Source: an uncultured Poribacteria bacterium | Lineage (GTDB): Bacteria; Poribacteria; WGA-4E; WGA-3G | Length of the DNA stretch: 64,000 nucleotides | Direction of reading: 5' to 3' | Assembly: GCA_951813565.1 (NCBI GenBank) | Contig: OX638351.1 | Location: forward strand, 928,001 to 992,000 | Shown: in pieces, positions 35,510 to 36,362 of the stretch | How positions within the stretch are numbered: position 1 is the first letter of the stretch | Layout of the letters: the number at the start of each line of letters is the position of its first letter | The notes under the pieces: generated by a model | Seen by the model: the letters and a program-made list of their open reading frames with translations, nothing else | What the model was told of the DNA's origin: nothing | The model's database searches: none | Made by a program: the position numbers and the translations under genes

Positions 35510-35600
35510 GTGATGCCACCCACTACCTAAAGGTAGGGGCTTCGGTTTCATCGCGATTGCGCTGTTTCCGAAGAAACAAGCGTCTTATTGTCGCTCCACC
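35510..35600 (-). ncRNA. TnpB omega-RNA (reRNA) scaffold
   Basis: GTGGAGCGACAATAAGACG...AAGCCCCTACCTTTAGGTAGTGGG shared with 62755-62846. Confidence 0.75.
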
Positions 35601-35601
35601 A

Positions 35602-35850
35602 TTAGGCCGTTATTCCGTATCAGAACGGTTTTATCAGGTATTGAACCCTGCGCACCCGGGCCTAAATAATAAAGTTTGTGGTGGCGATACAAGGCGTTGG
35701 ATTATTACTTCACAAGCGTTTTACATGAACGCCACCAAGAATAATGATGTTTTACAAGGTCTCACTTGCAACTTGCCATACACCATACGACTGGTGAGGG
35801 TAAGACTCAATCAAGAAATGATTGAGGTCGTATTCTTACCCCGCAAGTTG
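35602..35850 (-). ncRNA. Unknown structured RNA carried inside the non-autonomous element
   Basis: Three closed domains (35769-35850, 35679-35737, 35602-35665) with perfect 7-8 bp helices and a 7-bp pseudoknot; directly downstream of a consensus promoter. Confidence 0.6.
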
Positions 35851-35855
35851 AAGAT

Positions 35856-35884
35856 ATTATACAAAATGTTAGACACAAAGTCAA
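35856..35884 (-). promoter_or_regulatory. sigma70 promoter inside the element
   Basis: TTGACT-N17-TATAAT. Confidence 0.8.
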
Positions 35885-36362
35885 GTCTTTTGATAAATAA
35901 CCTAATTAGCCGTCTACATCCCACAAGCTAAAGCATGGGATTTGACGGGAGAGTGTTAAAAGATGCATTAAACCCACATTCCGCAGTTGTTTAATCAGAA
36001 TTTAATATTTATAGGACAAACCCGTGTCACGAAAGGATCCGTACCGGATAATAGAGATTTGGTGCCGTGAATTAAGATTCCACTTGTCACTTTTCTTTTT
36101 CTCTAATTCACCTGAAATTGCTTGCTCGATGTAGGTGCCACGCAGGTTTGAGAAATAAATATCGAAAATCGGAAATTCGAAGTGCGGAATGTAGGATTAA
36201 AATATCCTTATTTTATCTTATTTTAAAGTTTTTATTTCCTCAAAAAGAGTTTTTTGCGTTTATGATTGACTAATTGACGAACTTAGTTTCACTGCAACTG
36301 TTGGCAATTTCTTTACTACCAGTCCAAGCAAAAGATATTTACAACTATGGAATATTTCAACA

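What the first reader, a model, noticed from the sequence alone, without database searches (positions are those of the whole stretch)
35510..35955. Non-autonomous IS605 element in which tnpB is replaced by a promoter-driven structured RNA fused to the omega-RNA
Seen: the 446-bp element shares both ends with the tnpB element at 61482-62846, and removing it restores a lipoprotein gene exactly. Its interior shows no tnpB remnant that I can recognise. A TTGACT-N17-TATAAT promoter is followed by about 250 nt that fold into three domains. Domain 1 (35769-35850): CAACTTGC/GCAAGTTG closes GGGTAAGA/TCTTACCC, CTCAATCA/TGATTGAG and CACCA/TGGTG, and a bulge ATACGAC can pair with loop GTCGTAT as a pseudoknot. 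Domain 2 is closed by TGGTGGCG/CGCCACCA. Domain 3 is closed by TTAGGCC/GGCCTAA and has a T-loop-like CAGG-GTTCAATA-CCTG hairpin. An intact omega-RNA scaffold follows. Known: TnpA mobilises such ends in trans and TnpB uses the right-end RNA as guide. Inference: an RNA-cargo transposon that expresses a guide RNA in trans (guide AGATTTTTGTCTTAGG) attached to an RNA of a class I do not recognise (ribozyme, processing module or protein decoy).
Basis: partly seen in the sequence, partly recalled or inferred. Interest (0 to 1): 0.88.

Follow-up and report, generated by a model that had tools for sequence, protein, structure and literature searches.

The report
Gene-less IS605 transposon with novel leader RNA
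A 446-base gene-less jumping element in a sponge-symbiont bacterium keeps its promoter and its guide RNA, and between them carries a previously undescribed, tightly folded leader RNA that also sits in front of defence and mobile genes across this bacterial family.

Summary
Window 35510-35955 (sense on the minus strand) is a gene-less IS200/IS605 element (a PATE) inserted after TTAA in a small lipoprotein gene. It keeps the left-end hairpin, an 11/12 sigma-70-type promoter homologous to the tnpB promoter, and an intact omegaRNA.

- "Domain 3" is not new. It aligns with the tnpB 3' end of full-length copies and is the 5' half of the omegaRNA. Its "T-loop" is not conserved.
- The closest TnpB partners are three copies elsewhere in the genome, not the gene at 61642.

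The new part is domain 1: a three-way junction locked by a 7-bp loop-bulge pseudoknot, followed by a small GNRA-type hairpin and an A-rich tail.
- In 51 instances, 97% of cells pair and 34 of 38 pairs show compensatory changes.
- It matches no Rfam family.
- It occurs in 85 of 111 other genomes of one Candidatus Poribacteria family.
- It always lies directly behind a promoter. Most copies are in PATEs of several IS605 subfamilies. Some precede toxin-antitoxin, TIR, STAND and integrase genes.

I read it as a cis-acting, translation-independent leader that secures output of the downstream RNA. Function is inferred, not shown.

The parts
35956..35959 (-). Target / transposon-adjacent motif TTAA, immediately 5' of the left end
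   Evidence: 34 of 36 parsed independent insertions of this element family in relatives follow TTAA.
35899..35955 (-). Left end (LE) with subterminal hairpin (35910-35948)
   Evidence: 84-96% identical to the LEs of tnpB- and tnpA-bearing IS605 copies in the same genome. Coordinates read by hand.
35856..35884 (-). Sigma-70-type promoter TTGACT-N17-TATAAT. The -10 ends 5 nt before P1.
   Evidence: 11 of 12 matches. The -35 region aligns with the tnpB promoter of full-length copies. A -10-like hexamer ends 4-6 nt before P1 in 43 of 51 instances.
35769..35850 (-). Leader module, domain 1. P1 (35843-35850 / 35769-35776), P2 (35834-35841 / 35798-35805), P3 hairpin (35806-35826), P4 hairpin (35781-35796). 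7-bp pseudoknot between the P2/P3 bulge (35827-35833) and the P4 loop (35785-35791).
   Evidence: Covariation: (97.2% of 1911 cells paired; 34 of 38 pairs compensatory; pseudoknot 6 of 7 pairs). Model R1 scores 112.6 bits here. No Rfam match.
35755..35768 (-). P5: 4-bp hairpin with GNRA-like loop (U-GAGA-C), directly abutting the P1 3' strand. Its 5' strand repeats the P1 3' strand.
   Evidence: Loop G and A are 96-98% conserved. 3 of 4 pairs are compensatory. Alternative pairings are conserved.
35746..35754 (-). Conserved A-rich single-stranded tail (UAAAACAUC)
35680..35736 (-). Domain 2: long hairpin with 7-bp GC-rich closing stem, conserved internal loops and apical AGUAAUAA. Followed by a U-rich linker (35666-35679).
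   Evidence: 17 predicted pairs, 5 compensatory. Other element subfamilies carry different domain-2 types or none.
35602..35665 (-).
   Evidence: Aligns at 84% with nt 1210-1363 of the full-length parent. Closing stem and both hairpins covary with tnpB-bearing copies.
35510..35601 (-). 3' half of the omegaRNA scaffold and right end (RE hairpin 35519-35539)
   Evidence: 91-92% identical to the RE of three full-length tnpB copies. Consensus fold has 42 pairs, 15 compensatory.
35494..35509 (-). Predicted guide: the first 16 nt of flank read through from the RE
   Evidence: Inference from the established TnpB/omegaRNA layout (Meers et al., PMC10055086, passages read). Not tested here.
35142..35509 (-). 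3' part of the interrupted lipoprotein gene. Its first 13 nt, ATG to TTAA, lie at 35956-35968.
   Evidence: The RE supplies an in-frame GTG, giving MASQIFVLG....
61482..62846 (+). Related tnpB-only IS605 copy in the window, of a different subfamily (TTAG target)
   Evidence: The TnpB has Pfam PF07282 and PF01385.

Best explanation
What it is (shown, about 0.9). A palindrome-associated, gene-less IS200/IS605 element. It has been mobilised by Y1 TnpA supplied in trans and inserted 3' of TTAA. It transcribes one non-coding RNA from the retained tnpB-type promoter: 5' leader module (three-way junction, 7-bp loop-bulge pseudoknot, GNRA-type hairpin P5, A-rich tail), then the domain-2 hairpin, then the omegaRNA scaffold, then the flank as guide. 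The omegaRNA would be used by TnpB made by three closely related full-length copies elsewhere in the genome, which share the TTAA target.

How the new part works (inferred). The leader is a portable, cis-acting, translation-independent module that raises the yield of full-length downstream RNA. That yield matters for a gene-less element whose guide must compete in trans for TnpB.

My committed mechanism (about 0.35). The predicted start site coincides with the first nucleotides of P1. P5 stacks directly on P1, so the 5' end is buried in a pseudoknot-locked fold. This shields the untranslated transcript from 5'-end-dependent decay; RNase J and RNase E/G homologues are present in the host.

Nearly as likely (about 0.25; listed as first rival). 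The module instead makes RNA polymerase resistant to termination.

The confidence figure given (0.4) is for the whole statement including the committed mechanism. The broader reading, a cis-acting leader that secures downstream RNA by either route, I put at about 0.6.
For: Transposon identity:
- Ends are shared with about 40 tnpB/tnpA copies.
- 10 Y1_Tnp hits in the genome, 8 of them without an internal stop codon.
- 34 of 36 insertions follow TTAA.
- No ORF or tnpB remnant in the interior.

Promoter: 11 of 12 matches, homologous to the tnpB promoter.

omegaRNA: aligns and covaries with tnpB-bearing parents.

The leader is real and under selection for its fold:
- 20 sequences: 95.8% paired against 31-40% in slid controls.
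- 51 sequences: 97.2% paired; 34 of 38 pairs compensatory. The pseudoknot shows 6 of 7 compensatory pairs although it was not in the model.
- G-U 121 against A-C 18, so the sense strand is the one that folds.

Generic cis role:
- A -10-like hexamer ends 4-6 nt before P1 in 43 of 51 instances.
- The module precedes omegaRNAs of several IS605 subfamilies.
- Without transposon ends, it precedes ParE-like, ThsB-TIR, STAND/Mrr, T5orf172, integrase and sigma-54-activator genes.
- Junction nucleotides are not conserved, which suits a structural role.

Host: Rho, RNase E/G and RNase J homologues are present.

RNA libraries: contigs from three RNA-labelled runs of two studies cover the element interior. 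This is presence only, not proof of transcription.
Against: - No experiment or read-level end mapping. Only assembled contigs were available, so the start site, processing and abundance are unknown.
- A pseudoknotted three-way junction is more elaborate than known bacterial 5' stabilisers.
- Conserved helix sequences (P2, P5 loop, tail) hint at recognition by a partner.
- The conserved repeat of the P1 3' strand in P5 allows alternative pairings, which a passive stabiliser does not explain.
- Domain 2 has no explanation in this reading.
- The own-genome copy is single and sits in a gene, unlike most relatives' copies.
Confidence: 0.4

Rival explanations
1. Processive antitermination or anti-Rho leader. 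The nascent module binds RNA polymerase, as put of phage HK022, EAR or canT do. Transcription of the untranslated omegaRNA with its guide, and of horizontally acquired operons, then runs through terminators and escapes Rho.
For: - Promoter-proximal position.
- Independent of what lies downstream, coding or not.
- Sequence-conserved helices and restriction to one bacterial family would fit contact with a lineage-specific polymerase surface.
- The host has Rho.
- In the elements, the domain-2 GC-rich stem is followed by a U-rich tract.
- Known cis antiterminator RNAs sit at the start of mobile-element operons (PMC9378689 and PMC11658703, passages read).
Against: - No canonical terminator was found after the leader here or in two other loci.
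- The fold differs from the two-stem V shape described for put.
- There is no functional test.
Confidence: 0.25
2. Regulated switch. The module senses a ligand, protein or cellular state and toggles between P1+P5 and an alternative pairing. This would gate the omegaRNA and defence or mobile genes together.
For: - The P5 5' strand repeats the P1 3' strand across sequence-divergent subtypes.
- Alternative helix P1-3'/P5-3': 93.8% paired, 3 of 4 pairs compensatory.
- Alternative helix P1-5'/P5-5': 5 of 7 pairs compensatory.
- The parallel-helix three-way junction held by a loop-bulge contact recalls purine and THF-I aptamers (recalled, not tested).
Against: - Junction and loop nucleotides, where aptamers are most conserved, vary freely.
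- No terminator or start-codon-masking platform is recognisable.
- No Rfam aptamer matches.
- The alternative-helix counts are not independent of the P1 and P5 covariation.
Confidence: 0.18
3. Processing module. Either a self-cleaving ribozyme or a tRNA-like substrate of RNase P or RNase Z that releases the omegaRNA or a separate small RNA.
For: - The compact pseudoknotted fold has many copies per genome and varied gene contexts, as seen for small ribozymes.
- P1 plus P4, with a loop-bulge 'elbow', loosely resembles a tRNA layout (my reading, not tested).
Against: - No conserved core nucleotides.
- No Rfam ribozyme or tRNA hit at E up to 10.
- ARAGORN finds nothing here.
- TnpB itself is reported to process omegaRNA 5' ends (PMC10278001; title and start of abstract seen in the listing).
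Confidence: 0.08
4. TnpB-specific function: an extended guide scaffold or decoy that binds TnpB, or a trans-acting small RNA cargo.
For: It is fused to an omegaRNA in most copies. Transposon-derived structured 5' RNAs with trans functions are known for IS200 (PMC5435999 and PMC12594629; abstracts seen in the listing).
Against: - tnpB-bearing parents lack it.
- It accompanies very different omegaRNA types, and protein genes with no omegaRNA.
- The pseudoknot and P3 sequences vary freely, so no seed-like region is conserved apart from the tail.
Confidence: 0.05
5. No RNA function: a decayed remnant, or a DNA-level structure used in single-strand transposition.
For: IS200/IS605 elements move as single strands; G-T pairs are also tolerated in DNA.
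Against: - Strong compensatory variation at 71-85% overall identity.
- Fixed spacing to a promoter.
- Copies exist without any transposon end.
- No protein-level remnant.
Confidence: 0.03

Closest known systems
omegaRNA-bearing PATEs (gene-less IS200/IS605 elements), as noted for Geobacillus stearothermophilus by Meers et al. (PMC10055086; passages read)
   Same: LE and RE hairpins without genes. Carries an omegaRNA that must be used by TnpB made elsewhere. Mobilised by TnpA in trans.
   Different: This element has its own strong promoter plus about 180 nt of conserved, covarying non-coding RNA (leader module and domain 2) in place of tnpB. The passages read do not mention anything of that kind.
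IStrons and IStron-type PATEs (group I intron + omegaRNA; Zedaveinyte et al., bioRxiv 2023.11.20.567912; passages read)
   Same: A structured RNA in the left part and an omegaRNA in the right end of one IS605/IS607-type element.
   Different: No group I intron match. The target ends in A rather than U. There is an internal promoter. Only 8 of 36 insertions lie in long frames, 3 sense and 5 antisense.
Cis-acting antiterminator RNAs of mobile elements (HK022 put, PMC9378689; Tn916 canT, PMC11658703; passages read)
   Same: A structured RNA at the start of a transcript of a mobile element, acting on whatever lies downstream.
   Different: The fold differs: put is described as two stem-loops in a V shape with a triplex. 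No sequence relation. The function of the present module is untested.
IS200 5' UTR-derived structured RNA (5'tnpA; PMC5435999, PMC12594629; abstracts seen in the listing)
   Same: A stable structured RNA from the 5' end of an IS200-family transcript.
   Different: That RNA is the leader of tnpA and acts in trans on host mRNAs. It is unrelated in sequence and fold as far as I can tell; the papers were not read beyond the abstract starts.
5'-terminal stabilising stem-loops of bacterial mRNAs and exonuclease-resistant RNAs of flaviviruses (recalled, no call)
   Same: A fold at the very 5' end that hinders end-dependent nucleases. The viral ones also combine a three-way junction with pseudoknots.
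   Different: No homology. The resemblance is architectural and recalled from memory.

Membership tests
IS200/IS605 non-autonomous element (PATE) | Subterminal LE and RE hairpins homologous to those of tnpA/tnpB-bearing copies; no terminal inverted repeats | tested here: met
   LE 84-96% and RE 80-92% identical to full copies in the same genome.
IS200/IS605 non-autonomous element (PATE) | Insertion 3' of a fixed tetranucleotide without target duplication | tested here: met
   TTAA|LE ... RE|flank. 34 of 36 parsed insertions in relatives follow TTAA.
IS200/IS605 non-autonomous element (PATE) | No protein-coding gene inside | tested here: met
   Sense ORFs are at most 37 aa. tblastn with TnpB and TnpA: best E = 0.28.
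IS200/IS605 non-autonomous element (PATE) | Y1 transposase available in trans, and signs of mobility | tested here: met
   10 PF01797 hits, 8 without an internal stop codon. 36 distinct insertion sites of the element family in relatives. The window's own copy is single.
TnpB omegaRNA | Scaffold overlaps the tnpB 3' end and the RE; homologous to that of tnpB-bearing copies | tested here: met
   (nt 293-446 against parent nt 1210-1363, 84%). (column-by-column alignment; 15 of 42 pairs compensatory).
TnpB omegaRNA | Bound by TnpB; guide taken from the flank; cleavage of a TAM-flanked target | not testable with these tools
   Needs biochemistry. The parents' TnpB ORFs are open (374 aa).
IStron (group I intron fused to an IS605/IS607 element) | Group I intron fold; 5' splice site after U; splicing restores the host transcript | tested here: not met
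   No Intron_gpI hit at E up to 10. The target ends in A. No sense bias.
Any Rfam 15 family (riboswitches, ribozymes, IS605-orfB motifs, tRNA-like) | Covariance-model match | tested here: not met
   (only snoRNA-type noise, E at least 0.23). (nothing at the locus). (12 related loci, nothing on the module or domain 2).
   ARAGORN finds nothing at the locus. The hairpin stem covaries but the loop sequence varies among copies.
Cis-acting processive antiterminator RNA (put-like) | Promoter-proximal nascent RNA that makes polymerase terminator-resistant | tested here: inconclusive
   Position met. No terminators found downstream. Activity is not testable here.
Riboswitch aptamer | Highly conserved junction or core nucleotides and an expression platform | tested here: not met
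   Junction nucleotides are not conserved. No terminator or sequestering hairpin. Conserved alternative pairings leave a switch possible.

The most novel reading that the evidence does not exclude
The module is a new class of lineage-specific nascent-RNA regulator used by selfish and defence genes of Poribacteria. It would be a pseudoknot-locked three-way junction with a built-in two-state P1/P5 switch that acts on RNA polymerase, Rho or a dedicated protein. Guide-RNA production of gene-less transposons, toxin-antitoxin modules, TIR and STAND defence genes and integrases would then be licensed together.
Probability: 0.3. Interest if true: 0.85.

Novelty: new variant of a known kind. Interest (0 to 1): 0.72.

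Why it matters
Gene-less IS605 elements carrying guide RNAs are known, but how they get enough guide RNA to compete for TnpB made elsewhere is not. This element family shows a concrete solution: the tnpB promoter is kept and a conserved, elaborately folded leader is placed in front of the guide RNA.

The same leader heads defence, toxin-antitoxin and integrase genes. It is therefore a portable expression or regulatory module of the mobile gene pool of an uncultivated sponge-symbiont phylum. It is also an RNA family absent from Rfam 15, with hundreds of copies and unusually clear covariation. That makes it a good candidate for structure determination and for testing RNA-based control of transposon guide RNAs. 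It could also be useful as a compact 5' module for expressing guide RNAs.

Tried and rejected
- Splicing (IStron-like). No contig in the four runs laid joins 35509 to 35956. Contigs cannot prove absence, so this counts only here. The orientation test gave no sense bias.
- RNA-run cover. The flanks 35200-35505 are covered only in the DNA-like run X8, and the stretch 35812-35879 is uncovered in X5.
- Natural empty site. Not found in 39 other genomes of the genus.
- Wider occurrence. The exact 18-mer hits in Tatumella, Martelella, Rhizobium and a Granulosicoccaceae MAG are chance (R1 14-18 bits). There were 0 hits in viral contigs.
- Other mini families. Family B of the same genome is not matched by R1 and its interior does not fold better than shuffles (z = -0.86). 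The tail-like motif I saw by eye there is unsupported.
- Domain 2 as an intrinsic terminator. Not flagged; only a U-rich tract 2-6 nt after the stem, seen by eye.
- Terminators after gene-linked leaders. Not above shuffles.
- Earlier scan notes. Sequence look-up found nothing.
- Literature. The searches 'Poribacteria'+'TnpB' (0 papers), IS605/non-autonomous/structured RNA/TnpB/pseudoknot/MITE and Poribacteria/insertion sequence/noncoding RNA/IS200/transposase listed no description of this module. Subscription journals are not covered.
- Part coordinates.
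Full report
THE ELEMENT

Window 35510-35955 reads in sense on the minus strand. 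It is bounded by TTAA on the left-end side and by the flank AGATTTTTG... on the right-end side. With the element removed, the site has a 137-codon open frame. The junction falls at codon 15, inside a lipoprotein signal peptide (MHLLKIFVLGILVFLVSCG; row L070, hand check). No orthologous empty site exists in 39 other genomes of the genus, so the exact restoration rests on the reading frame alone.

The genome (5.43 Mb, one contig) holds about 40 tnpB-only IS605 copies of roughly 1365 bp. It also holds tnpA-bearing copies and three families of gene-less mini-elements. The window's own element is the only copy of its kind in this genome.

Its ends match the window's tnpB element (61482-62846) at 84% (LE) and 80% (RE). 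Better relatives lie elsewhere:
- Three full-length copies have the RE 91-92% identical over 126 nt and use the TTAA target.
- Two tnpA-bearing copies have the LE 96% identical.

Ten Y1-transposase matches are present, 8 without an internal stop codon. The window's TnpB carries PF07282 and PF01385.

WHAT IS INHERITED AND WHAT IS NEW

Sensitive blastn against the closest full-length parent aligns element nt 1-77 to the LE and promoter region. It aligns nt 293-446 to the last 154 nt of the parent: the tnpB 3' end, the omegaRNA and the RE (84% identity).

- In an alignment with two tnpB-bearing parents and seven gene-less relatives, its closing stem and both inner hairpins covary (42 predicted pairs, 15 compensatory).

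The promoter (TTGACT-N17-TATAAT, 11 of 12) aligns with the parents' tnpB promoter.

Between them lie about 215 nt with no similarity to anything else in the genome. They show no protein-level trace of TnpB or TnpA (best E = 0.28) and match no Rfam family. The 187-nt interior folds far better than shuffles (z = -4.6).

THE INTERIOR IS A CONSERVED RNA

The 221-nt interior matches 20 of 100 relatives' genomes, all in the same family. Full-length homologues of the whole 446-bp element, 71-82% identical, occur at many sites in relatives.

Their alignment shows textbook covariation in domain 1:
- P1, P2, P3 and P4 all covary.
- The 7-bp pairing between the P2/P3 bulge and the P4 loop has a different complementary sequence in nearly every lineage.
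- On 20 sequences, 95.8% of cells pair, against 31-40% when partners are slid.

A covariance model (R1) was built without the pseudoknot. It recovered 51 instances from the loci held. On these:
- 97.2% of 1911 cells pair.
- 34 of 38 pairs have compensatory changes.
- 6 of 7 pseudoknot pairs are compensatory.
- G-U pairs outnumber A-C pairs 121 to 18, so the sense strand is the folding strand.

Behind P1 comes a 4-bp hairpin (P5) whose loop G and A are 96-98% conserved and mostly GNRA-like. An A-rich tail follows. The strands of the three-way junction are not conserved.

Domain 2 is less certain. It has a covarying 7-bp closing stem, an inner stem and conserved loops (17 pairs, 5 compensatory). 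Other element subfamilies carry other domain-2 types or none.

DISTRIBUTION AND CONTEXT

Distribution:
- R1 finds the module in 85 of 111 other genomes of the family.
- In a phylum-wide sample it hits 76 of 99 genomes of that family, 1 of 26 in a sister family and 0 of 25 in seven further families.
- An exact 18-mer scan of 185,579 species' genomes gave 46 loci. Of these, 42 are in records titled Candidatus Poribacteria and 4 are chance hits.
- Viral contigs gave none.

Context:
- In 43 of 51 instances a -10-like hexamer ends 4-6 nt before P1. The predicted start therefore falls on the first nucleotides of P1.
- Most instances lie in gene-less elements with the order LE, promoter, module, optional domain 2, omegaRNA, RE. 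These belong to several clearly different LE/RE subfamilies.
- Of 16 sampled hits in three genomes, read by eye, 13 show an omegaRNA/RE-type end downstream. Two run off their contig. One precedes a small ORF.
- None of the instances examined precedes tnpB.

A minority have no transposon ends and act as leaders of protein genes:
- an operon with a ParE-like toxin;
- ThsB-type TIR proteins with DUF4268/HNH neighbours;
- a 788-aa STAND NTPase with an Mrr-type nuclease domain;
- a T5orf172 nuclease;
- two tyrosine recombinases;
- a sigma-54 activator.

In the sister-family genome all 5 hits lie on one 141-kb contig. In another genome 4 of 7 lie on a 140-kb contig.

INSERTION BEHAVIOUR

Of 37 distinct copies, 36 could be parsed, and 34 of those follow TTAA. 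Only 8 lie in an open frame of 100 codons or more, mostly at its very end, 3 in sense and 5 in antisense. There is thus no sign that the element needs to be removed from host transcripts. Neither a group I intron match nor a suitable splice-site context exists.

EXPRESSION

Only assembled contigs of public runs were available.
- Run X1: a 405-nt contig equals 35525-35929 with one difference.
- Run X2: a contig covers 35510-35869 and continues into a different flank, so it comes from another copy.
- Run X5 (second study): two contigs cover 35527-35669 and 35640-35806.

RNA libraries can contain DNA, so this shows presence, not transcription.

HOW IT MOST LIKELY WORKS

Shown:
- the transposon identity;
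- the inherited promoter and omegaRNA;
- TnpA and TnpB availability in trans;
- a leader fold under strong selection;
- its fixed place at predicted transcript starts;
- its independence from what lies downstream.

Inferred: the module acts in cis and without translation to secure the downstream RNA.

I favour 5'-end sequestration (about 0.35).
- The start coincides with P1.
- P5 abuts P1, so the 5' end would sit at a nick in a continuous stack, locked by the pseudoknot.
- The transcript is untranslated.
- The host has RNase J and RNase E/G homologues.
- A gene-less element whose guide must capture TnpB in trans should be selected for guide abundance.

Nearly as likely (about 0.25) is a put-like action on RNA polymerase or against Rho.
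- Rho is present.
- Known cis antiterminators head mobile-element operons.
- Conserved helix sequences and restriction to one lineage would fit a polymerase contact.

UNEXPLAINED OBSERVATION

The 5' strand of P5 repeats the 3' strand of P1 in sequence-divergent subtypes. Two alternative helices are therefore conserved:
- P1-3' with P5-3': 93.8% paired, 3 of 4 pairs compensatory.
- P1-5' with P5-5': 5 of 7 pairs compensatory.

This keeps a regulated two-state switch alive (about 0.18), although the non-conserved junction speaks against a small-molecule aptamer. Ribozyme or RNase P/Z substrate (about 0.08), TnpB-specific scaffold or decoy (about 0.05) and non-functional or DNA-level readings (about 0.03) fit the data worse.

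COMPARISON WITH WHAT IS KNOWN

Gene-less IS200/IS605 elements that "often encode omegaRNAs" to be used by TnpB in trans are described (PMC10055086, passages). So are IStron-type gene-less elements with a group I intron (bioRxiv 2023.11.20.567912, passages). The present element is a member of the first kind by every defining feature I could test. It fails the IStron tests.

What I found in no paper listed by my searches, nor in a 2026 review searched for terms, nor in Rfam 15, is the promoter-driven leader module itself.

Earlier notes of this scan describe omegaRNA-bearing mini-IS605 elements in other organisms as already known. They also place this genome in Poribacteria. Neither mentions this module, and a sequence look-up found nothing.

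VERDICT

The finding is real and largely as described. The element is a new variant of a known kind. The leader RNA it carries is a well-supported, apparently undescribed RNA family whose function remains to be tested.

Noticed in passing
own genome G000:C1, e.g. 3901692-3902091 (family A, 7 copies of about 400 bp) and 2117809-2118203 (family B, 5 identical copies of 395 bp); loci L171-L173: Two further gene-less IS605 mini-element families with different interiors. Family B has a TTGACA-N17-TATATT promoter-like site and a 10-bp closing helix. Model R1 does not match it, and its interior does not fold better than shuffles.
   Followed up: partly
L041-L044 and L066-L069 (about position 1500 or 650 in each): An isolated fragment of about 70 nt of the element (3' half of domain 2 to the start of the omegaRNA), 85-93% identical, sits at what looks like the same locus in eight loci from seven species. 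It lies directly upstream of a conserved secreted-protein gene (start MKRTYMFFGMTF...). It is probably an old fixed relic, possibly now part of that gene's upstream region.
   Followed up: partly
window 35510-35519 (minus strand): The right end supplies an in-frame GTG. The interrupted lipoprotein could therefore still be made with a new N-terminus (MASQIFVLG...VSCG) from the element's read-through transcript.
   Followed up: no
L033-L065, L100-L140 (domain 2 and tail; listed): At three separate UGUA sites (tail, 5' loop and 3' loop of domain 2), copies carry either UAA/UAU or UCC, in independent combinations. No explanation.
   Followed up: no
L079 949-1228 (minus strand); also L045/L090: In L079 a gene-less element of this family is inserted a short distance upstream of a host T-box leader (Rfam T-box, 103.8 bits). 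The flank of the element in L045/L090, from another genome, looks similar by eye but was not scanned.
   Followed up: no
L033 (about 160-nt insert at the -10 region); L036, L037, L066 (about 110-nt insert in domain 2); L179 (long tandem repeat inside the omegaRNA): Nested insertions and a tandem-repeat expansion inside some copies of the element in relatives.
   Followed up: no
L175-L178 (two contigs of about 140 kb in G097 and G058): Several leader modules cluster on these contigs ahead of integrase, TIR, STAND, HNH and T5orf172 genes. The contigs may be plasmids or defence islands.
   Followed up: partly
L081, L164 (upstream of the promoter): Copies that lack the LE share a short motif (ACTAAATGACCCT) just upstream of the promoter. 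L162 and L187 share another upstream motif. These may be ends of other mobile units that carry the leader. G029 has 10 hits of identical score, of which only L187 was inspected.
   Followed up: no
window 33855-34120, 34212-37246, 37468-37700: A large SRP RNA, six tRNA genes and a cobalamin riboswitch flank the insertion site. These are ordinary features.
   Followed up: no
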